From NCBI GenBank assembly GCA_035275265.1, contig DATENC010000017.1, forward strand, positions 6,442-70,441: a DNA stretch of 64,000 bases. Direction: 5' to 3'. This stretch comes from Burkholderiales bacterium. GTDB taxonomy: Bacteria > Pseudomonadota > Gammaproteobacteria > Burkholderiales > JACQAP01. Positions 7,257 to 56,839 of the stretch are shown here, piece after piece; the stretch's first letter is position 1; each line of letters starts with the position of its first letter. A program made the translations under genes and the position numbers. The notes beneath the pieces were generated by a model. It did not search any database and had not been told where the DNA came from. It saw only the letters and a program-made list of their open reading frames with translations.

Positions 7257-7712
7257 TTGGCCAACGCTCCCAGTTTCAGCCTGCGTGCACGGGCACTGAA
7301 GACGCTGGGGCGGCGCGAACACTCGCGTCGGGAGTTGCAGGCCAAGCTCCAACCGTTTGCTGAAAACCCGGACGAACTCGACACACTGCTGGACGAACTG
7401 GAAAAGCGCGCCTGGCTATCGGAGGCGCGTTTCGTCGAGCAGTTGACGACCACGAGGCGGCGCAAGTTCGGTGCCGCACGCATCGTTCATGAACTGCGCG
7501 AGAAGGGGGTCTCGGACGACGCGATCTCCGCAGCGCAAGCGCAGTTGAAGGCGGGCGAAGTCGAAGCGGCGCGGGCGGTGTGGACGAAGAAGTTCGGCAA
7601 ACTGCCACGGTCGCTGCAGGAGCGTGGCAAGCAGGCGCGTTTTCTGGCCAGCCGGGGATTTTCCGCCGAAATTGTGCATCAGGTGCTCAAGGACGGCAAC
7701 GAACGGGAATGA
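7257..7712 (+). CDS. recX: Regulatory protein RecX
   Basis: LGRREHSRRELQAKL, RFLASRGF; directly after recA. Confidence 0.92.
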   Translation: MANAPSFSLRARALKTLGRREHSRRELQAKLQPFAENPDELDTLLDELEKRAWLSEARFVEQLTTTRRRKFGAARIVHELREKGVSDDAISAAQAQLKAGEVEAARAVWTKKFGKLPRSLQERGKQARFLASRGFSAEIVHQVLKDGNERE

Positions 7713-7805
7713 AGCAGCTACGGCATCCGTGAATGAAATAGAATCCAAACAGGAAATGTCCGGATTCATTCCGACGAATTTCGACATCCAACGGTTATGC
7801 GGTCC

Positions 7806-10424
7806 ATGACAAGCAACGAAATCCGCCGTCGCTTCCTCGACTATTTCCAACGTCAGGGCCACACGATCGTCCCCTCCAGCCCGCTGGTTCCTGCCAACGA
7901 TCCGACGCTGTTGTTCACGAATGCGGGCATGGTGCAGTTCAAGGACGTGTTCCTCGGCAGGGAAAAGAGGCCGTACGCACGCGCCACCACCTCGCAGCGC
8001 TGCGTTCGCGCAGGCGGCAAGCACAACGACCTGGAGAACGTCGGCTACACCGCCCGGCACCACACCTTCTTCGAGATGCTGGGCAATTTCAGCTTCGGGG
8101 ACTACTTCAAGCGCGACGCGCTGCGCTTTGCCTGGGAACTGCTGACGAAGGAATTCGGGCTCGATCCCGCCCGTCTGTGGGTCACGGTGTATCAGACCGA
8201 CGACGAGGCCTACGACCTCTGGGCCAAGGATATCAAAGTGCCGAAGGAGCGCATCGCACGCATCGGCGATGTGCCCGGCGGAAGCAAATTCCAGAGCGAC
8301 AACTTCTGGCAAATGGGTGATACCGGTCCTTGCGGTCCATGCACCGAAATTTTCTATGACCATGGTCCTGGAATTCCCGGTGGCCCGCCTGGTACGCCAG
8401 ATGCGGACGGCGACCGCTACATCGAGATCTGGAACCTGGTGTTCATGCAGTTCAATCGCGACGAATCGGGGACGATGCACCCACTTCCCAAACCCTCGGT
8501 GGATACCGGCATGGGACTGGAGCGCATCGCCGCGGTGCTGCAAGGCGTGCACAGCAACTACGAGATCGACCTGTTCCGGGATCTGATCGCCGCTGCGGCC
8601 AGGGTCACCGCTGCGAAGGATCCTACTTCCAGTTCGCTGAACGTAATCGCCGACCATATCCGCGCTTGCGCCTTTCTGATCACGGACGGCGTGATTCCTG
8701 GCAACGAAGGCCGCGGCTACGTGCTCCGCCGGATCATTCGCCGCGCTATCCGTCACGGCTACAAACTCGGCCAGACCAAGCCGTTTTTCCACAAACTCGT
8801 CGGCGACCTGTCGCTTGTCATGGGCGAGGCTTTTCCGGAATTGCCGGCCGCGCAGGAACGGGTGACCGATGTACTGAAACAGGAGGAAGAGCGCTTCGCC
8901 GAGACGCTGGAAAACGGAATGAAGGTGCTCGAGAACGCGCTGCATCGCGAGGACCGGATGTTGGATGGCGAGACGGTGTTTCAGCTTTACGACACGTTCG
9001 GCTTCCCGGTCGATCTCACAGCCGACATTGCCCGCGAACGCGGCCTGATGATCGATCACGCAGGTTTTGAGTCGGCGATGCAAAAGCAGCGTGAACGCGC
9101 CCGTGCCGCCTCCAGGTTCACAGTGCACGCGGGAATGGATTACAGCGGTCAGGGTACCGAGTTTCACGGCTACGACACGCTGAATCTGGATGGCAAGATC
9201 GTGGCGCTCTACAAGGGTGGCACGCCGGTGCAGAGGATCGAGGCCGGCGACGATGCGGTGGCGGTGCTCGACCGCACGCCGTTCTACGCCGAGTCCGGAG
9301 GGCAGGTCGGTGACCTGGGCGAGATCACTTCCAGCAATGGCAGTTTCGCGGTGAACGATACGCAGAAAATCCAGGCGGAGGTGTTCGGCCACAAGGGCGT
9401 ACTCAAGGCCGGCCGTTTCGCGGTCGGCGATGCGGTCACCGCGCAGGTCAACCCGGTGACGCGTGCGCACGCGGCATACAATCATTCGGCCACCCACCTG
9501 ATGCACGCGGCGTTGCGCAAGGTACTCGGTCCGCACGTCACGCAAAAGGGCTCGCTGGTGGACGCCAACCGCACCCGCTTCGACTTTTCCCACCACGCGC
9601 CGATGACGGCGGAGCAGATCGGCGAGGTCGAGGAACTGGTGAATCGCGAGATCCGGAGCAATCATGCGGTCGAAACCCGGCGCATGAAGTACGACGAAGC
9701 GATCAAGGCCGGCGCGATGGCGCTATTCGGGGAAAAATACGGAGACGAAGTGCGAGTTCTGCGCATGGGCGATTTTTCCACTGAATTGTGCGGCGGCACC
9801 CACGTGCGGCGCACCGGCGACATCGGGTTCTTCAAGATCGTCTCCGAATCCGGGGTCGCCGCAGGCATTCGTCGGGTGGAAGCAGTGACCGCGCAAGGTG
9901 CGCTTGCCTGGGTTAAAGAGCAGGAAGCCAGGCTCGGTGAAGCGGCGCAGGTGCTGAAAGCCCAACCGCAGGAAATCCTGCAAAAGCTTGCCCAAGTGCT
10001 CGACAACGTAAAATCGCTGGAGAAGGAACTGGCCCGGCTCAAATCCCGCCTCGCCAGTTCGCAAGGCGATGACTTGGCCGCCCAAGCGGTCGCGATCGGG
10101 AAGGTGCGGGTCCTGGCAGCGAAACTCGACGGGGCGGACGTCAGGACACTGCGAGAAGCGATGGACAAGCTCAAGGACAAACTCAAGTCGGCAGCCATCG
10201 TGCTCGGCTCGGTCGAGGGCGACAGGGTCACCCTGATTGCCGGCGTGACAGACGATCTGACCGCCACGGTCAAGGCGGGTGAACTCGTGAACTACGTGGC
10301 GCAGCAGGTCGGCGGCAAAGGCGGCGGCCGCGCGGACATGGCGCAAGCTGGTGGCACGCAACCGGCGAAACTTTCGGATGCGTTGGCAAGCGTCGCCGAT
10401 TGGGTCAAACAAAAAGTGGCGTAG
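7806..10424 (+). CDS. alaS: Alanine--tRNA ligase
   Basis: [63 protein letters not shown]. Confidence 0.99.
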
Positions 10425-10459
10425 GGCGCGGGCGGCGCCCGACCGATAAGGAGATGTTC

Positions 10460-11002
10460 ATGAGAAAAATTGCGACACTACTGATGGGCCTGGCTGCGGC
10501 GCTTTGGGCGGAAGGAGCCGCTGCGGATGCCAAGGATCTGGAGATCTTCCACAGCATCGCGATCGATGCGCCGGCCGACGAGGTGTGGGCCATGGCCGGC
10601 GACTTCGGCGGCATTCAGCGATGGTCTCCGGGAACCGAATCCAGCCGGCTTATTGTCCGTGATCGCAACGAGACCGGCGCTATCAGGCTGCTTCGCCGTC
10701 GCAGCGACGGCACCCAGGTCACGGAGAAATTGCTCGACTACGATCCGGCCAACCGTCGTATGGCCTACACTTACGTGGACGGCGTGGTAAGAGCCGCCGA
10801 CTATTTCTCCGAATTGCAGGTGAAAGATGCTGGTAACGGGCGGTCGCTCGTCGAGTGGCGCGGCCGCTTCAAGCGGTTGGCCTACTGGACCGACGATCCC
10901 CCCGCGGGCCAGGATGACAAGGCGGCGCTCGATTTTCTCAATGGCGCCTACAAGACCGGACTCGAGAATCTCAAGAAGGTCCTCGAAGCGAAGAACCGCT
11001 AG
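10460..11002 (+). CDS. Exported SRPBCC (polyketide cyclase 2) protein, MxaD-like
   Basis: Signal peptide; IAIDAPADEVWAMAGDFGGIQRW, EKLLDYD, VEWRGRFKR; AAGGAG RBS. Confidence 0.7.
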   Translation: MRKIATLLMGLAAALWAEGAAADAKDLEIFHSIAIDAPADEVWAMAGDFGGIQRWSPGTESSRLIVRDRNETGAIRLLRRRSDGTQVTEKLLDYDPANRRMAYTYVDGVVRAADYFSELQVKDAGNGRSLVEWRGRFKRLAYWTDDPPAGQDDKAALDFLNGAYKTGLENLKKVLEAKNR

Positions 11003-11014
11003 TACATCTGTGCG

Positions 11015-12391
11015 CTAGAAGGGGAGCTGGGCGGCGGGAGCGGCCTGGTGCAATACCCGCCGGAAGTCTGCCTGGATTCGTTCCAAGGCGGCCTTATCAT
11101 CGGCTTCGAAGCGCAGCACCACCACCGGGGTGGTATTGGAAGAGCGAGCCAGTCCGAAACCGTCCGCGTATTCCACTCGCAGCCCGTCAATTGTGATTAC
11201 TTCACGGGCATCCGGAAAACGCGCGGCCTTCTGCAACTTTTCGATGAGCGCGTAATTCTCGCCTTCCTTGAGCTTGATCTGCAGCTCCGGCGTGTTGACC
11301 GAGTCGGGCAGCTCGTCGAGCGTTGCGTTGATGTCGGGTACGCCGCTCAGGAATTCGAGCAGGCGCGCGCCGGCGTAGAGGCCGTCGTCGAAGCCGTACC
11401 AGCGCTCCTTGAAGAAGATGTGCCCGCTCATTTCACCGGCGAGTAGCGCGCCGGTTTCCTTCATCTTTGCTTTGATCAACGAGTGGCCGGTCTTCCACAT
11501 AGTAGCCCTGCCGCCGTGCTTGCGGATCCAGGGCGCGAGATTGCGGGTGCACTTCACGTCGAACAGGATTTCGGCACCAGGATTGCGCTTGAGCACGTCC
11601 GCGGCGAACAGCATCAGCTGTCGATCCGGGAAGATCACCTTGCCTGCCTTGGTGACTACACCGAGGCGATCGCCGTCGCCGTCGAAAGCCAGCCCGATCT
11701 CGGCGTCTCCTTCCTTGAGTGCCGCGATCAGATCTTTCAGATTCTCCGGCTGCGACGGATCAGGATGATGGTTAGGGAAGGTGCCGTCCACTTCGCAGAA
11801 AAGCTCTTCGACCTCGCAGCCGAGCTTGCCGTACAGCGAGGGCGCAAAGGCGCCGGGTATGCCATTGCCGCAGTCCACTGCGATGCGCATCCTGCGCTTC
11901 ATCTTGATATCGCCGGTCACACGCTCAAGATAGGCGAGGCCGACGTTTTCGCTGCGAATGCTTCCGGAGCCACGCTTCAAGTCTCCAGCTTCCAGCCGCC
12001 GGCGCAGTTTCTGGATGTCGTCGCCCGAAAGCGTGTCGCCCGCGAGCATCATTTTCAAACCGTTGTAATCCGGCGGGTTGTGGCTGCCGGTTACCATGAC
12101 ACCGCTACCCGTGGAGAGGTGGTGCGTCGCGAAGTAAAGAATTGGTGTGGTTACGCGGCCGATGTCGATTACGTCCGCGCCGCTTTTCTGCAGTCCGCGC
12201 GCGAGCGCCTGGGCCAGCGCCGGTCCCGAAATGCGGCCGTCGCGGCCGATGCAGACGGCGCGTTTGCCGCGTGCCTGCGCTTCCGAGCCGATCGCCTGGC
12301 CGATCGCCTCAACCGCCTCGACTGTGAGCGTACGATCGACGATGCCGCGGATGTCATAGGCTTTGAAGATCTCGGGCGCGGGGAGGTTCAT
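11015..12391 (-). CDS. algC: Phosphomannomutase/phosphoglucomutase (AlgC-like)
   Basis: FKAYDIRG, TGSHNP, FDGDGDR, GEMSGH, RSSNTTP. Confidence 0.93.
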   Translation of the reverse strand: MNLPAPEIFKAYDIRGIVDRTLTVEAVEAIGQAIGSEAQARGKRAVCIGRDGRISGPALAQALARGLQKSGADVIDIGRVTTPILYFATHHLSTGSGVMVTGSHNPPDYNGLKMMLAGDTLSGDDIQKLRRRLEAGDLKRGSGSIRSENVGLAYLERVTGDIKMKRRMRIAVDCGNGIPGAFAPSLYGKLGCEVEELFCEVDGTFPNHHPDPSQPENLKDLIAALKEGDAEIGLAFDGDGDRLGVVTKAGKVIFPDRQLMLFAADVLKRNPGAEILFDVKCTRNLAPWIRKHGGRATMWKTGHSLIKAKMKETGALLAGEMSGHIFFKERWYGFDDGLYAGARLLEFLSGVPDINATLDELPDSVNTPELQIKLKEGENYALIEKLQKAARFPDAREVITIDGLRVEYADGFGLARSSNTTPVVVLRFEADDKAALERIQADFRRVLHQAAPAAQLPF

Positions 12392-51383: not shown

Positions 51384-51863
51384 ATGCAGATTGGCAAGGA
51401 CACTGTGGTGTCCCTCAACTATGAACTATTCGATACCGCGGGTACGATCGTCGAAAAAACTCAGGCCCCGATTACTTATCTACACGGGGGCTACGACGGC
51501 ATTTTCCCGATGGTGGAAAGCGCGCTGCATGGCAAGGGCGTTGGCGATACCTGCGAGGTCCGCCTCGAGCCGGATGAGGCGTTTGGCGAGTATGACGCGG
51601 GTATGGTTCGCGTCGAACCGCGCAAACTGTTCCCGGAAAACATCACGGTGGGTATGCAGTTCGAAGGCGCCGTGGAAGACTCCGACCGGTACAAGCTCTA
51701 TACGGTTACCGAGATAGCCGACGACAAAGTGGTGGTAGACGGCAACCATCCGCTGGCAGGGCAGACGCTGGTATTTTCCTGCACCGTGACCGAAGTACGC
51801 GCCGCGACCGACGAAGAACTGCACCACGGCCACGTACATGGTCCCGAGGGGCACCACCATTAG
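51384..51863 (+). CDS. slyD: FKBP-type PPIase SlyD
   Basis: YLHGG, VDGNHPLAG, His-rich C-terminus. Confidence 0.92.
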   Translation: MQIGKDTVVSLNYELFDTAGTIVEKTQAPITYLHGGYDGIFPMVESALHGKGVGDTCEVRLEPDEAFGEYDAGMVRVEPRKLFPENITVGMQFEGAVEDSDRYKLYTVTEIADDKVVVDGNHPLAGQTLVFSCTVTEVRAATDEELHHGHVHGPEGHHH

Positions 51864-51883: not shown

Positions 51884-52693
51884 TTAGTTCCCGCGCTTGC
51901 CGGTGAGGATGTGGATCATCGGCTCGTAAGCGCTCTCCTGTGAGAAACGCCAACTGGCGACGATCAGTGCTGCCAGGGTAAAACCGGCGAGCACTGCAAG
52001 ATCCATCGCAAGCGGGAAATCCGCCCCCATGCCGGATGACAGAACGCCGAGCGTGGCGTGCTTCAGCAGGTCGACGCCGTAAGTGTAGGGGTTGGCCAAT
52101 GCCACCACCTTGAGCAGCGCCGGCAACTGGTTCACCGGGTAGAGCGAGCCGGACAGGAAAAACACCGGGAAGATCACGAAATTCATTATTGCTGCGAAGT
52201 TGTCGAGTGTCCTGGTGAACGCGGCCACCAGCATTCCGATTCCCGCGCACGCCAGCGACGTTGCTATCAACCCGATCGCCAGGATGCCGAACCGCGTTTC
52301 CTGTCCCACGTATCCAAGCAAAGCGAGCACGACCAGCAGCAGCAGCGCTTGGAGGATCGCCGCCAGCGCCGCAGCCAGCATTTTGCCGATGACGATCCAG
52401 TAGTGTGCAAACGGCGCGACGATCAACATGCGCATCACGCCGGATTCTTTGTCGTACACGACCGTTAGCGCCGCCAGCATCGCGCCGAACAACATGGTCA
52501 TGCCCAGCACGCCCGGAACCAGGAACTGCTGGTAACTCAGACCGCTCGCCTGGCCGAGCACGGCACCAAACCCGGCTCCGATCACGAACAGCCAGATCAG
52601 CGGCCGTACCATTGCTGCAACCAGTCTGGTGCGCTGGCGGAACATGCGCACCACTTCGCGCTCCAGCACCGCATAGACAGGCCTCCAGGGCAT
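51884..52693 (-). CDS. ABC-2 type permease, PedC-like
   Basis: LEREVVRMFRQRTRLVAAMVRPLIWLF, FLVPGVLGM, FFLSGSLYP, NPYTYGVD. Confidence 0.82.
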   Translation of the reverse strand: MPWRPVYAVLEREVVRMFRQRTRLVAAMVRPLIWLFVIGAGFGAVLGQASGLSYQQFLVPGVLGMTMLFGAMLAALTVVYDKESGVMRMLIVAPFAHYWIVIGKMLAAALAAILQALLLLVVLALLGYVGQETRFGILAIGLIATSLACAGIGMLVAAFTRTLDNFAAIMNFVIFPVFFLSGSLYPVNQLPALLKVVALANPYTYGVDLLKHATLGVLSSGMGADFPLAMDLAVLAGFTLAALIVASWRFSQESAYEPMIHILTGKRGN

Positions 52694-52695
52694 CT

Positions 52696-53628
52696 TCAGA
52701 TCTTCCCTTCTGCGATCCACAGAAACACATCGTTCAGGTTCGGCCGGCGCCAGCGCAGCGCCTTGATTTGCGCGCCCAGTTCTCCCTGCAGCCGTGCCAG
52801 GGGCGTCACATCCTCTTCCGGGTATCGAAACTGTGCGACTTCGCCATCTCTGAGACAAGGGCCCAACTTCGAGGCAAGCCGTTTGGAAAGCGCGTCGATG
52901 TCCCGGCCTTCGATCTCCACGATATGCCTACCCAGGCTTTCGACCAGTTGCTGCGGCGGACCGGATTGCACGAGCTTGCCGCTCTTGATGAATGCCACGC
53001 GATCGCAACTATCGGCTTCCTCAAGATAGTGCGTGGTAAGCAAGACGGTCATTCCGGTGCGGGCGCGCAGCCTGTCGATGAAACGCCAGATGTTGCGCCG
53101 GTTGGGCAGGTCGAGGCCGATGGTGGGTTCGTCGAGGAACAGGATGCTGGGGTGGTGGATCATTCCGCGCAAGATGTCGAGCGCACGGCGCATGCCGCCC
53201 GAGAGGGACCCCACGGGCCGATTGCTCTTGTCGGCTAGGCCGAACAATTCGAGCAACTCCGCGGAACGCTCGCGGATGACCGCTGGCGTCAGGTTGTAGA
53301 GAAGGCCGGCAAATCGCAGATTTTCCGCAATGGTGAGCGAGCGATCCAGCGCCGAGTCCTGGAAGACCAGTCCGATTGCGGCGCGGACCTTCACTGCCTG
53401 CTCAACCACATCATGGCCGGCGACGCGGGCCGTTCCGCTGCTGGGGCGGATCAGCGTCGCCAGCATATGGATGGTGGAAGTCTTGCCCGAGCCGTTTGGA
53501 CCGAGCAATCCGAAGAACTGGCCTGAGGGAATGTCGAGATCGAGACCGTCGACCGCGACCAGCTGGCCGTAGCGCTTCACGAGCCCGCTGGCGCGCACGG
53601 CGAGCAGCGAGTCAGCCGCCTGATTCAT
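52696..53628 (-). CDS. ABC transporter ATP-binding protein, PedB-like
   Basis: GPNGSGKT, LSGGMRR, ILFLDEPT, LTTHY. Confidence 0.88.
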   Translation of the reverse strand: MNQAADSLLAVRASGLVKRYGQLVAVDGLDLDIPSGQFFGLLGPNGSGKTSTIHMLATLIRPSSGTARVAGHDVVEQAVKVRAAIGLVFQDSALDRSLTIAENLRFAGLLYNLTPAVIRERSAELLELFGLADKSNRPVGSLSGGMRRALDILRGMIHHPSILFLDEPTIGLDLPNRRNIWRFIDRLRARTGMTVLLTTHYLEEADSCDRVAFIKSGKLVQSGPPQQLVESLGRHIVEIEGRDIDALSKRLASKLGPCLRDGEVAQFRYPEEDVTPLARLQGELGAQIKALRWRRPNLNDVFLWIAEGKI

Positions 53629-53644: not shown

Positions 53645-54790
53645 TCAGGCCGGCGTTTTACTCAAGGCACGCGAATTCTTGTCGTCGCGGAACAGGATCG
53701 GCTTCACCTCGACCGCTGGCGCCGGTTTCTGCGCCTTGTCCACTGCGTCGGTCACCAGGTGATGATGAGGGGACAGGTCGCATACCGGATCGGCATTGGT
53801 GGCATCGCCGGTGAGCATGTAGGCCTGGCAGCGGCAGCCGCCAAAATCCTTGGCCTTTTCCGGACAGGTTCGACACGGCTCCTTCATCCACGCATCGCCA
53901 CGGAAGGCATTGAAGCCGGGGGAGTCGTACCAGATCGAGCGCAGGTCGTGGTCGCGCACGCTGGGGAAGGTCAGGCCCGGTAGCTGGCGTGCTTCGTGAC
54001 AAGGCAGCGCGAGCCCATCGGCGGTGATGGTGAGGAAAACCGAGCCCCAGCCGTTCATGCACGCTTTCGGGCGGTTTTCGTAGTAATCCGGAACCACGAA
54101 GAAAATCCGCATCTTGTTGCCGACGCGTTCGCGAAATTTGTTCGTGACTTCCTCGGCCCGCTGCAATTGTTCGCGGGTCGGGAGCAGTTGATTCCGGTTC
54201 ACGTAAGCCCACCCATAGTACTGGGTGTTGGCGAGCTCCACGTACTCCGCCTCCATCGCCTCCGCCATCTCCAGGATCTGTTGCACATGGTCGATGTTGT
54301 GCCGGTGAAGCACGCAGTTCAGCACCATGGGGTAGTCGTGTTTCTTGATCAGCTTTGCCACTTTCTGCTTGAGATCGAAAGTGCGCGTGCTCGACAGAAA
54401 ATCGTTCAGTTCCTTGGTCGAGTCCTGGAAGGAGAGCTGGATGTGATCCAGGCCACCCTCCTTGAAAGCGCTGATGCGTTTTTCGTTGAGCCCAACGCCG
54501 GAAGTGATCAGGTTGGAGTAGTAGCCGAGCTTGCGTGCTTCCGCGACCATGATCTCGAGGTCATCGCGCACGAGCGGCTCGCCGCCGGAAAAGCCCAGTT
54601 GCGTTGCGCCGATTTCACGGCCTTGGCGCAGCACTCGCAACCAGTCTTCCGTCGAGAGCTCCTGGCCGTAAGACGTGTAGTCCACCGGGTTGTAGCAGAA
54701 CACGCAGTGCAAAGGGCACTTGTACGTGATCTCCGCCAGCAGCCAGAGCGGGCTACCCGGTTTGTTTGGGGCGGATCCAGCCTTTTCCAT
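53645..54790 (-). CDS. pqqE: PQQ biosynthesis radical SAM enzyme
   Basis: EITYKCPLHCVFCYNP, SGGEP, YVELANTQYYGWA, CMNGWG, DFGGCRCQA. Confidence 0.98.
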   Translation of the reverse strand: MEKAGSAPNKPGSPLWLLAEITYKCPLHCVFCYNPVDYTSYGQELSTEDWLRVLRQGREIGATQLGFSGGEPLVRDDLEIMVAEARKLGYYSNLITSGVGLNEKRISAFKEGGLDHIQLSFQDSTKELNDFLSSTRTFDLKQKVAKLIKKHDYPMVLNCVLHRHNIDHVQQILEMAEAMEAEYVELANTQYYGWAYVNRNQLLPTREQLQRAEEVTNKFRERVGNKMRIFFVVPDYYENRPKACMNGWGSVFLTITADGLALPCHEARQLPGLTFPSVRDHDLRSIWYDSPGFNAFRGDAWMKEPCRTCPEKAKDFGGCRCQAYMLTGDATNADPVCDLSPHHHLVTDAVDKAQKPAPAVEVKPILFRDDKNSRALSKTPA

Positions 54791-55046
54791 GTACGTGCTC
54801 CAGAAAACCGATGACGTCCCCTCTCAGGTCCGTACCGGGAAATGCGTTATGCAAATCTTCGACGATTGCGCGCACGCTGGATTTGCCGTCGATTCGCTTC
54901 ATGATTTCTCCGGCGCTGCCCGGCAACTTGACCATGCCTTCCGGATAGAGCAGGACGAAACCCTGTTGTGCCGGCTCCCATTGGAAACGGAAATGGCGCT
55001 GAAGTTCGAAAACAGTATCGTCCGTGAATGTCGCGGCATCAGACAT
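54753..55046 (-). CDS. pqqD: PQQ peptide chaperone
   Basis: [22 protein letters not shown]. Confidence 0.95.
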
Positions 55047-55758
55047 ATCGGGTCTCGCCGATCCCGTAGTTGATCTGCATCGAGTCGAGCATGCTCCACA
55101 GCACGTCGAGCTTGAACTGCAAGATACCCAGTGCACGTTCCTGTTCTTCGCGGGTCTTGAAATAGTCGAGCGTCACCTTGAGTCCGTGCTCGACGTCGCG
55201 GCGCGCTTCCGACAGGCGCTTGCGGAAATAGGCATAGCCCTCGGGCTCGATCCAGGGATAGTGCTGCGGCCAGTTCTCAAGGCGCTTCTTGTGGATCTCG
55301 GGCGCAAACAATTCCGTCAGCGACGAACACGCGGCCTCCTGCCATGGCGCGCGCCGGGCGAAGTTGACGTAGGCGTCCACCGCGAAGCGCACGCCGGGCA
55401 GCACGTGCCTGAGCGAAGTAATCTCTTCGCGTTTTAGCCCGCATGCCTCGCCCAGGCGCAGCCATGCTTCGATGCCACCTTCCTGTCCCTCGACGCCGTC
55501 GTGATCGATGATGCGCTGAATCCACTTGCGGCGTTGTTCGCGGTCCGTCATGTTGGAGAGCACCGCTGCATCCTTGATCGGGATGCTGATCTGGTAGTAG
55601 AAGCGGTTATAAACCCAGCCCTGCACCTGCTCCCGGGTGAACTTGCCGCTGTTCATCGCGATGTGGAACGGGTGATGAATGTGGTAGCGGTTGCCCTTGG
55701 CGCGCAATTGCCTTTCGAACTCGTCTTTGCTCCACGGCAGATTTTCGGCTGCGCCCAT
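55039..55758 (-). CDS. pqqC: Pyrroloquinoline-quinone synthase
   Basis: [45 protein letters not shown]. Confidence 0.98.
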
Positions 55759-55770
55759 GCAGGCTCCAGT

Positions 55771-56685
55771 TCAGAGTGTGACGTCCATTCCGTCGTACGC
55801 CACCTCGATCCGGCGGGAGTCCAGTTCCTTACGCTCCTTTGAGTCTTCGTCGAGGATGGGGTTGGTGTTGTTGATATGGATCAGTATTTTGCGTGACGCC
55901 TTGAGCGGTTCAAGTACTTCCATCATGCCCCCGGCACCCGACTGCGGCAGATGGCCGATGTCGCGTGCATGTTTTTTCGAGATACCGAGTTTGATCATCT
56001 CGTCGTCGGTCCAGAATGTCCCGTCCACCATCAGGCAATCCGCCTCCTCGAGTAGCGGCCGCAAGTGCGGCTCACTGGCGCCAAGTCCGGGAGCATAAAA
56101 AAGCACCTTGCCGGAGCGCTTGTCCCTGATGCGCATGCCGATGTTATCCCCCTCGTGCGGGTTGTCACGGTGCGGCGAATAGGGCGGTGCTTTGCTGCTC
56201 AGGGGTACGGCCGTAAAAGTGAGTTGTTCCGCACCTATTACCGGGAACTCGTTGCCGGGACTGGTGGGTACTTGGTGCCAGTGTACGCCGCAATAGTGTT
56301 CGAGGATGTTGAACAGCGGATTGCCGGTGGTCAGGTCCTCGCGTGCCATGCCGGTACAGTAGATTTCCAGCGGCTTGCCTTCGCGTAGCATCAGCAATCC
56401 GGTGGTGTGGTCGATCTGCGCATCCATCAGCACTATCGATCGGATCGCTGTGTCGCGAATCGCCCGTGCTGGCTGCAATTCCGGAAACGCCTTCAATTGC
56501 GCCAACAGGTCGGGCGAAGCGTTGAACAGCACCCAGTTGATATTGTCGGCACTGACGGCGATTGAGGACTGGGTCCGAGCTTTTGCCCGAACAGTGCCCT
56601 TGCGCACGCCGTCGCACATACGGCAGTTGCAGTTCCACTGCGGAAAGCCTCCGCCCGCCGCGGCCCCAAGAACCTTTATTCGCAT
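55771..56685 (-). CDS. pqqB: PQQ biosynthesis protein B
   Basis: [45 protein letters not shown]. Confidence 0.98.
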
Positions 56686-56718
56686 TGTCCGTCAAAATTA
56701 TCGTGTTATGGCCGGCAC

Positions 56719-56750
56719 AAAAAACGAAAGCCCCGCGAAGGGGCTTTCGT
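56719..56750 (-). terminator. Intrinsic terminator/attenuator between pqqA and pqqB
   Basis: 11-bp stem ACGAAAGCCCC/GGGGCTTTCGT, 5-nt loop, followed on the minus strand by a T run. Confidence 0.8.
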
Positions 56751-56767
56751 CCAAGCCCAACCCGGAA

Positions 56768-56839
56768 TTAGCGGTTGGCAATGTACATCGTGACTTCAAA
56801 GCCGAAACGCATTTCGGTGTACTCAGGCTTGCTCCACAT
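56768..56839 (-). CDS. pqqA: PQQ precursor peptide, copy 1 ([23 protein letters not shown])
   Basis: 23 aa, E-x3-Y core, GGAGA RBS, upstream of pqqB. Confidence 0.97.

What the first reader, a model, noticed from the sequence alone, without database searches (positions are those of the whole stretch)
51884..53628. PedB/PedC-like ABC pair co-transcribed with pqqE, with no binding protein: candidate PQQ exporter
Seen: the ATPase starts 16 nt after the pqqE stop and the permease 2 nt after that. The permease is ABC-2 (exporter) type, and no substrate-binding or YVTN gene is in the operon. Established: PQQ is made in the cytoplasm but used in the periplasm, and I know of no clearly defined exporter. 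The similar PedBC of P. putida was linked to lanthanide-dependent growth together with PedA proteins. Inference: direct operon fusion to pqqABCDE points to PQQ export.
Basis: partly seen in the sequence, partly recalled or inferred. Interest (0 to 1): 0.58.

Follow-up and report, generated by a model that had tools for sequence, protein, structure and literature searches.

The report
ABC exporter welded to PQQ operon
A two-gene ATP-driven export pump sits at the end of the operon that makes the redox cofactor PQQ, and this pump family occurs only in PQQ-making bacteria of at least two phyla, so it is the best (still untested) genomic candidate for the unknown step that moves PQQ out of the cytoplasm.

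Summary
On the minus strand lie pqqA, a hairpin, pqqB, pqqC, pqqD and pqqE. A 16-nt gap precedes an intact ABC ATPase, and a 2-nt gap precedes an ABC-2 permease. A convergent slyD closes the unit. No binding-protein or beta-propeller gene is present in the operon, and none scores above cut-off in the genome.

The pair is not PedB/PedC. It falls below the TIGR03864 and TIGR03861 cut-offs and forms a separate clade with no curated family model.

In 300 genomes of the same order, every assembly-resolvable copy (38) sits directly after pqqE. In 400 genomes of the class, all 19 carriers have pqq genes against a 15% base rate, even where the pair has moved elsewhere. Deeper lineages, including Gemmatimonadales, show the same fusion in 52 of 59 metagenome loci. 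True PedC, by contrast, also occurs in genomes that have PQQ enzymes but lack pqq genes.

The permease model has the type V exporter fold. The best reading is a product exporter for PQQ, at about 0.45. No substrate evidence exists. One relative has lost the pair, and pqq genes alone suffice in E. coli.

This scan has found the same arrangement before on other DNA, in at least 20 genomes.

The parts
56768..56839 (-). pqqA precursor peptide gene (23 aa, E-x3-Y motif FEVTMY)
   Evidence: Sequence read; translation; conserved upstream of pqqB in related loci
56716..56752 (-). 13-bp GC-rich hairpin plus U6 directly after pqqA: terminator-like attenuator
   Evidence: Fold: -31.6 kcal/mol, z = -2.9. 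The attenuator role is inferred from what is known of other pqq operons (own knowledge)
55771..56685 (-). pqqB
   Evidence: TIGR02108, 427 bits, cut-off 245
55039..55758 (-). pqqC
   Evidence: TIGR02111, 363 bits, cut-off 240
54753..55040 (-). pqqD. The start is approximate. The listed ORF runs to 55136, but the family match begins near residue 37. The 3' end overlaps the pqqE start
   Evidence: NF002535, 106 bits, cut-off 101; TIGR03859, 96 bits
53645..54790 (-). pqqE radical SAM/SPASM enzyme
   Evidence: TIGR02109, 532 bits, cut-off 381
52696..53628 (-). ABC ATPase, 310 aa. Walker A GPNGSGKT, signature LSGGMRR, Walker B ILFLDEPT and H-loop are intact. A C-terminal domain of about 75 aa is present, DrrA/ABCA-like
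   Evidence: Nearest solved sequences are ABCA NBDs and 4yer. TIGR01188 drrA 299 bits (cut-off 312); TIGR03864 199 bits (cut-off 302)
51884..52693 (-). ABC-2 permease, 269 aa, six TM helices, type V exporter fold. Start lies 2 nt after the ATPase stop
   Evidence: PF01061 at 2.3e-34. TIGR03861 163 bits (cut-off 241); drrB 158 bits (cut-off 223). AF2 model pLDDT 85.8. Foldseek hits KpsM, ABCH, ABCG5/8, NosY, Wzm
51384..51863 (+). Convergent slyD-type FKBP peptidyl-prolyl isomerase: the downstream boundary of the operon, not part of the system
   Evidence: NF008008, 121 bits, below cut-off 174. Syntenic only in closer relatives

Best explanation
The ATPase and permease form a homodimeric (ATPase)2(permease)2 type V ABC exporter. 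It is transcribed with pqqBCDE and translationally coupled within the pair. It belongs to an unnamed ABC-2 family whose evolutionary history is bound to PQQ biosynthesis. The most likely job is to pump the finished cytoplasmic product PQQ, a 330-Da tricarboxylate, across the inner membrane to the periplasmic quinoproteins, of which this genome has about ten. Shown: the anatomy, the family placement, the fold, the operon fusion and the phyletic coupling. Inferred: co-transcription, the direction of transport and the substrate.
For: (1) Anatomy. Gaps are 16 nt and 2 nt, there is no terminator, and all ATPase motifs are intact.
(2) Order sample of 300 genomes. pqqE was found in 81. This permease lineage (45% identity or more) was found in 47. 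In all 38 cases where both genes lie on one contig the order is pqqE-ATPase-permease. The rest are split at contig ends. The fusion persists where the slyD/JmjC flank is lost.
(3) Class sample of 400 genomes. The pqqE base rate is 15%. All 19 carriers of the lineage have pqq genes: 18 have pqqE, and G548 has pqqC at a contig end. In the 11 of 15 loci fetched with +-8 kb flanks the pair has moved next to a sigma-54 two-component pair; all 10 of those genomes tested for pqqE have it elsewhere.
(4) Trees. The lineage is separate from PedC. Linked members occupy most deep branches. One subclade became unlinked.
(5) Deeper lineages. A metagenome scan with 38-46%-identical relatives gave 52 linked and 7 unlinked loci out of 59 determinable. 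The linked set includes a Gemmatimonadales group and a third Burkholderiales lineage, f5.
(6) Contrast with PedC. PedC-type genes occur in genomes that have PQQ dehydrogenases but lack pqqC and pqqE, and they sit next to the dehydrogenase (G197, G590). This lineage does not.
(7) Exporter logic. No SBP is in the operon and none reaches the cut-off in the genome. The fold matches exporters only, including carriers of small anions (ABCG2, ABCG25) and the periplasmic cofactor-assembly transporter NosFY.
(8) The gap is real. I found no defined inner-membrane PQQ exporter in the papers searched. The only proposal is an unrelated fused ABC transporter in M. extorquens.
Against: There is no direct evidence on the substrate. 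G137 has pqqABCDE followed directly by slyD, has no pair, and has no permease match, yet carries nine PQQ-dehydrogenase genes. About 31 of 81 pqqE-positive genomes in the order sample carry neither this lineage, nor the f5 lineage, nor PedC. K. pneumoniae pqqABCDEF alone gives active periplasm-facing glucose dehydrogenase in E. coli W (PMC12076931). A dedicated pump is therefore not generally required. This lineage and PedC never co-occurred in the 400-genome sample (0 observed, about 6-7 expected among pqq-positive genomes). That pattern could mean they do the same job, and PedBC is linked to lanthanides. Many invariant residues are shared with PedC. All the genomes involved appear to have lanthanide-type (D-x-D) dehydrogenases.
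Confidence: 0.45

Rival explanations
1. The pair is a functional counterpart of PedBC/LutEF. It would handle lanthanides, or a lanthanide chelate, needed by lanthanide-dependent PQQ dehydrogenases, rather than PQQ itself.
For: PedC is the closest named family, and the two share most invariant residues. This lineage and PedC are mutually exclusive in the class sample. This genome has seven or more D-x-D (lanthanide-type) dehydrogenases but no PedA1A2BC above cut-off. The 1.5-Mb genome G304 has the fusion and a single XoxF-like enzyme. PedA1A2BC is needed for La-dependent but not Ca-dependent growth (PMC6839425).
Against: The lanthanide role of PedBC is read as import and rests on the binding protein PedA1. 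No such protein is in the operon here, and none reaches the cut-off in the genome. The lineage tracks pqq biosynthesis genes, not dehydrogenases. PedC is found in PQQ non-producers and this lineage is not. The fusion is to the biosynthesis operon in more than 100 loci.
Confidence: 0.17
2. The pump removes something else made by the pathway: PqqA-derived peptide debris, a reactive intermediate, or excess PQQ as self-protection. This is the DrrAB or LanFEG logic.
For: The ATPase scores best on DrrA (299 bits). ABC-2 pairs in other biosynthetic clusters serve producer immunity (own knowledge). The phyletic coupling to pqq genes fits this reading as well as it fits PQQ export.
Against: No toxicity of PQQ intermediates is known to me. 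Peptide exporters of RiPP clusters are usually of the type IV fold (own knowledge). PQQ is the only pathway product that is known to need to leave the cytoplasm.
Confidence: 0.15
3. This is a generic efflux pair that merely hitch-hikes behind pqqE, with no functional connection.
For: Databases give only generic names. One relative lost it cleanly.
Against: The fusion is kept across permease identities from 97% down to about 35%, in two phyla, and with changing flanks. There were 19 of 19 carriers with pqq genes against a 15% base rate, including unlinked copies.
Confidence: 0.05

Closest known systems
PedB/PedC of PedA1A2BC (Pseudomonas putida; NCBIfam TIGR03864/TIGR03861) and the homologous LutE/LutF of Methylorubrum extorquens
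   Same: ABC-2 permease plus ATPase. It is the nearest named family, with many shared invariant residues. It is statistically associated with PQQ systems and sometimes lies beside the pqq operon (L168, L169, L186).
   Different: The pair scores far below both cut-offs (199/302 and 163/241 bits), while genuine members score 356-414 bits. It forms a separate clade. Its ATPase has an extra C-terminal domain, 310 aa against about 240-260 aa. It has no PedA1 binding protein and no PedA2 beta-propeller. It sits in the biosynthesis operon, not with the dehydrogenases. It was never seen in a genome without pqq genes, whereas PedC is.
DrrAB daunorubicin-resistance exporter family (TIGR01188/TIGR01247)
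   Same: The best ATPase score is here (299 bits, just under the cut-off of 312), with the same long C-terminal domain. It is an SBP-less ABC-2 exporter encoded in a biosynthetic cluster that expels the cluster's product.
   Different: The permease scores only 158 bits against a cut-off of 223. The host is a Gram-negative proteobacterium. The predicted cargo is a cofactor, not an antibiotic.
Type V ABC exporters with solved structures (KpsMT, Wzm-Wzt, ABCG2/ABCG25, NosDFY) and CcmAB
   Same: The predicted permease fold matches, with TM-scores 0.6-0.73. There is a weak CcmB Pfam hit. NosFY and CcmAB are precedents for ABC-2 systems that serve cofactor supply to periplasmic enzymes (own knowledge).
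   Different: Sequence identity is only 12-23%. There are no accessory partners such as KpsE, NosD or CcmCDE.
META1p2359 of M. extorquens AM1, the only published PQQ-exporter proposal I found (PMC7391723)
   Same: It is an SBP-less ABC exporter proposed, without transport data, to carry PQQ to the periplasm. It is essential for methanol growth.
   Different: It is a fused ATPase-transmembrane protein, not a two-gene ABC-2 pair, and the paper does not describe it as part of the pqq operon. I did not compare its sequence here.

Membership tests
PedBC (TIGR03861 PedC permease / TIGR03864 PQQ_ABC_ATP) | Score above the curated NCBIfam cut-offs | tested here: not met
   Permease 163.4 bits against 241.35. 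ATPase 198.7 bits against 302.25. Genuine PedC sequences from other genomes score 356-414 bits.
PedBC (TIGR03861 PedC permease / TIGR03864 PQQ_ABC_ATP) | Partnered with the PedA1 binding protein (TIGR03863) and the PedA2 beta-propeller (TIGR03866) | tested here: not met
   Neither is in the operon. The best genome-wide scores are 43.5 bits against 413.6 and 112.5 bits against 287.3.
PedBC (TIGR03861 PedC permease / TIGR03864 PQQ_ABC_ATP) | Falls inside the PedC clade in a phylogeny | tested here: not met
   There is a separate clade in each tree, with SH-aLRT 86 and 93. The PedC clade has 97 and 90. These are quick searches without bootstrap.
DrrAB (TIGR01188 / TIGR01247) | Score above the curated subfamily cut-offs | tested here: not met
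   ATPase 299.3 bits against 312.45, a near miss. Permease 157.6 bits against 223.05.
ABC-2 / type V ABC exporter | ABC2_membrane domain, six-TM type V fold, intact NBD motifs, no binding protein | tested here: met
   PF01061 at 119 bits and PF00005 at 106 bits. Motifs read. AF2 model with Foldseek hits to KpsM, Wzm, ABCG and NosY. No SBP found.
pqq biosynthesis operon (pqqABCDE) | PqqB, C, D and E above the equivalog cut-offs, and a PqqA peptide with the E-x3-Y motif | tested here: met
   for the scores; for pqqA.
PQQ exporter (functional class; no family defined) | ATP-dependent translocation of PQQ | not testable with these tools
   Only genomic association is available.

The most novel reading that the evidence does not exclude
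This unnamed ABC-2 family is the long-missing inner-membrane PQQ exporter. On this reading it was already fused to pqqE before the lineages sampled here diverged, in Pseudomonadota and Gemmatimonadota. The lanthanide-associated PedBC/LutEF transporters would then be a later offshoot that gained a binding protein and moved to the dehydrogenase clusters.
Probability: 0.35. Interest if true: 0.75.

Novelty: new member of a known kind. Interest (0 to 1): 0.6.

Why it matters
PQQ is made in the cytoplasm and used in the periplasm, and many producers also release it as a public good. The step across the inner membrane has no assigned protein in the papers I could search. A defined exporter would complete the pathway. 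It would give a handle for engineering PQQ overproduction and PQQ-dependent biocatalysis. It would also clarify how the PedBC/LutEF lanthanide transporters relate to PQQ biology. The family has no curated model and only generic names, and it sits mostly in uncultured soil and marine bacteria, which may explain why it has been overlooked. One cultured carrier of the fused operon, Thiohalorhabdus methylotrophus, makes the idea directly testable.

Tried and rejected
1. PedBC membership was rejected on scores, partners and tree.
2. Chance or purely syntenic adjacency was rejected. The fusion outlives the flanking synteny and spans two phyla.
3. A phylum-level sample of 380 genomes gave no member at E<=1e-45. 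The family is patchy and was not seen in the mostly well-known families drawn there.
4. I tried to separate the PQQ and lanthanide hypotheses by the D-x-D motif of the dehydrogenases. This was uninformative, because carriers examined, including the minimal genome G304, have lanthanide-type enzymes.
5. Tier-specific conserved residues (R19, Y205, H212, C149, D225, R249, against variable/H/F/L/gap/G in PedC) are leads only. No dimer or ligand model was made.
6. Literature searches for a defined PQQ exporter found only the META1p2359 proposal. Nothing was held on Thiohalorhabdus methylotrophus.
The contexts of the distant representatives were therefore obtained through the single metagenome scan instead.
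8. Fisher and hypergeometric figures are given only as descriptions. Related genomes are not independent.

Full report
**1. What is in the window**

All genes below are on the minus strand.
- pqqA lies at 56839..56768 and encodes [23 protein letters not shown].
- A 13-bp GC-rich hairpin with a U6 tail follows (-31.6 kcal/mol, z = -2.9).
- pqqB lies at 56685..55771, pqqC at 55758..55039, pqqD at about 55040..54753, and pqqE at 54790..53645.
- After a 16-nt gap comes a 310-aa ABC ATPase (53628..52696).
- After a 2-nt gap comes a 269-aa ABC-2 permease (52693..51884).
- A convergent SlyD-type isomerase gene ends 20 nt away.

PqqB, C, D and E all exceed their NCBIfam equivalog cut-offs. The ATPase has intact Walker A, Q-loop, signature, Walker B and H-loop motifs, plus a C-terminal domain of about 75 residues. 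The consensus scan finds no terminator-like site between pqqE and the pair.

**2. Which family the pair belongs to**

The ATPase scores best on DrrA (TIGR01188, 299 bits, cut-off 312). It scores only 199 bits on the Ped ATPase model (cut-off 302). The permease scores 163 bits on PedC (cut-off 241) and 158 bits on DrrB (cut-off 223).

Genuine PedC proteins taken from other genomes score 356-414 bits on the same model. The pair is therefore related to PedBC but is not a member. No curated family covers it, and public sources name it only "ABC-2 type transport system permease" or "ABC transporter permease".

The genome has a single copy. The next paralogue is 26% identical. Nothing in the genome reaches the PedC, PedA1 or PedA2 cut-offs. 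About ten PQQ-dependent dehydrogenase genes are present.

An AlphaFold model of the permease has pLDDT 85.8. It has the six-helix type V exporter fold. The nearest solved chains are KpsM, ABCH, ABCG5/8, NosY, Wzm, ABCG2 and ABCG25, at TM-scores 0.6-0.73. The ATPase is closest in sequence to ABCA nucleotide-binding domains and to 4yer.

**3. Linkage among relatives in the same order**

Eighty genome loci with permease identity from 97% down to 58% were fetched. All are uncultured Burkholderiales-type MAGs; a few carry other labels and are probably mis-binned. They show pqqBCDE-ATPase-permease wherever enough upstream DNA exists. This holds even where the downstream slyD/JmjC synteny is lost.

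In an even sample of 300 genomes of the order:
- pqqE was found in 81 genomes.
- This permease lineage (45% identity or more) was found in 47.
- In all 38 genomes where both genes lie on one contig, they are 1.0-1.9 kb apart in the same order.
- In 7 genomes the two genes are split at contig ends.
- G265 carries a frameshifted pqq operon next to the pair.
- G017, 85% complete, has the permease at a contig edge.

These counts include the unpublished genome G026.

**4. The pair is not indispensable**

About 31 pqqE-positive genomes in the order sample carry neither this lineage, nor the f5 lineage (section 6), nor PedC. G137 has pqqABCDE followed directly by slyD, with no pair, yet carries nine PQQ-dehydrogenase genes.

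**5. Coupling beyond the order**

In 400 genomes of the class, pqqE occurs in 61 (15%). A clearly separated tier of permease matches (50-62% identity, E <= 1e-79) occurs in 19 genomes of 11 families.
- Eighteen of these have pqqE.
- The nineteenth (G548, fragmented) has pqqC at a contig end.
- Four of these genomes were not fetched with flanks. Three are unpublished (G339, G441, G607); their tallies rest on that data. The fourth is G548, whose contig is short.
- Fifteen were fetched with +-8 kb flanks.
  - Three have pqqBCDE-ATPase-permease. One of these is Thiohalorhabdus methylotrophus, by the NCBI name of P0202.
  - One has ATPase-permease-pqqBCDE.
  - Eleven have the pair elsewhere. Most of these sit beside a divergent histidine kinase plus sigma-54 response regulator. 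All ten of the eleven that I tested keep pqqE at another locus.

The family therefore tracks PQQ biosynthesis even after physical separation.

A second tier of matches (37-43% identity) is genuine PedC.
- 22 of 27 carriers have pqqE.
- G197 and G590 lack both pqqC and pqqE, yet have PQQ dehydrogenases adjacent to the PedC gene.
- No genome in this sample had both tiers. About 6-7 were expected among pqq-positive genomes (descriptive only).

A phylum-level sample of 380 genomes contained no member.

**6. Phylogeny and deeper lineages**

A first tree (IQ-TREE quick search, SH-aLRT only) places the lineage (support 86) apart from PedC (97). A third Burkholderiales lineage, f5, is also separate. 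It too sits as pqqABCDE-ATPase-permease, but with a short ATPase.

Within the lineage:
- The Burkholderiales clade is linked, and so are two further deep branches.
- In the remaining clade the basal member is linked, and the unlinked genomes form the rest.
- The simplest reading is an ancestral fusion followed by translocation.

A profile search of 1.84 billion representatives showed a graded series of more distant relatives. It also showed fused ATPase-permease forms.

A metagenome scan with an alignment of relatives 38-46% identical to the lineage (by BLAST to my labelled set) returned 80 loci. Fifty-nine were determinable; of these, 52 have pqqE immediately upstream of the ATPase and 7 do not.

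One linked group has about 70% G+C, permease about 42% identical, PqqB about 41% identical, and a short ATPase. Public records name it as Gemmatimonadales.

In a second tree these deeper linked lineages form a clade (support 89). It is separate both from PedC (90) and from the clade that holds this window's lineage together with f5 (93). The fusion to pqqE thus recurs across very deep divergence and in at least two phyla.

**7. Interpretation**

The pattern has five elements:
- The pair sits last in a biosynthetic operon.
- It has no binding protein.
- It has an exporter-only fold.
- It is present only in producers.
- It is retained together with the pathway after unlinking.

This is the pattern expected of a product exporter, and PQQ is the pathway product that must leave the cytoplasm. 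I found no defined inner-membrane PQQ exporter in the papers searched. The one proposal is an unrelated fused ABC protein of M. extorquens, and it has no transport data. I put PQQ export at about 0.45.

**8. What speaks against it, and the rivals**

- Nothing here identifies the substrate.
- The pair can be lost, as in G137.
- Many PQQ producers lack it.
- K. pneumoniae pqqABCDEF alone suffices for holo-glucose dehydrogenase in E. coli W (PMC12076931). At most it is a lineage-specific, efficiency-raising route.
- Its mutual exclusivity with PedC, and the many invariant residues shared with PedC, allow a Ped-like role. PedA1A2BC is required for lanthanide-dependent but not calcium-dependent growth, and it is read as an importer because of its binding protein (PMC6839425; PMC12997753).
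- The carriers I examined have lanthanide-type D-x-D dehydrogenases, so that test did not discriminate.
- Against the lanthanide reading stand two points: the absence of any binding protein, and the fact that PedC, unlike this family, occurs in PQQ non-producers.
- Export of pathway by-products or self-protection remains possible.

**9. Status**

The scan has reported the same arrangement on other DNA at least 20 times.

Verdict: the feature is real and strongly conserved. It is a new, unnamed member of the ABC-2 exporter kind. Its function is plausible and testable but unproven.

Noticed in passing
L185 (G137:C4:164000-180000), about 7265-11165: A relative in the same order has pqqABCDE followed directly by convergent slyD, with no ABC pair. 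No permease match was found anywhere in that 99%-complete genome, yet it has nine PQQ-dehydrogenase genes. This looks like a clean natural loss of the pair.
   Followed up: partly
L182:4708-5514 (-) and L184:8490-9059 (+): Some lineages have an extra gene inserted between the ATPase and the permease. One is a secreted two-cupin protein (268 aa, signal peptide, Cupin_2). Another is a 4HBT hotdog thioesterase (189 aa).
   Followed up: partly
L153-L163, e.g. L153:10356-13249: In gammaproteobacterial genomes where the pair is not next to pqq genes, it is usually transcribed divergently from a HAMP histidine kinase plus an NtrC-type sigma-54 response regulator. These may regulate it.
   Followed up: partly
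L174/L175 (G203, G004; family f5): A third, long-branched ABC-2 lineage also sits directly after pqqE. Its ATPase is short (256 aa) and scores best on TIGR03864, but below the cut-off. In L175 a convergent PQQ dehydrogenase gene follows.
   Followed up: partly
L168, L169, L186: Genuine PedC-type permease genes (TIGR03861, 366-387 bits) lie convergent to, and about 1 kb from, the end of pqqE in three unrelated gammaproteobacterial genomes. In several others they lie within 3-30 kb of pqqE.
   Followed up: partly
P0211, P0292, P0207 (representatives): Relatives exist as single-chain ATPase-permease fusions (646-669 aa, ABCG-like order). One exists as a tandem double permease (610 aa).
   Followed up: partly
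L172 (G265:C46:84000-98000): The pqqB and pqqE reading frames next to an intact ABC pair are broken into several frames. This is either assembly error or a decaying pqq operon in a 65%-complete MAG.
   Followed up: no
window 56716-56752 (-): A strong terminator-like hairpin with a U6 tail lies directly after pqqA. This implies that pqqB-E and the ABC pair are expressed by read-through or from an internal promoter.
   Followed up: partly
G000 loci L087-L094: Seven of the eight PQQ-dehydrogenase paralogues of this genome that I aligned carry the D-x-D motif typical of lanthanide-dependent enzymes. The eighth could not be read in the alignment. The genome has no PedA1A2BC/Lut-type transporter above the family cut-offs.
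   Followed up: partly
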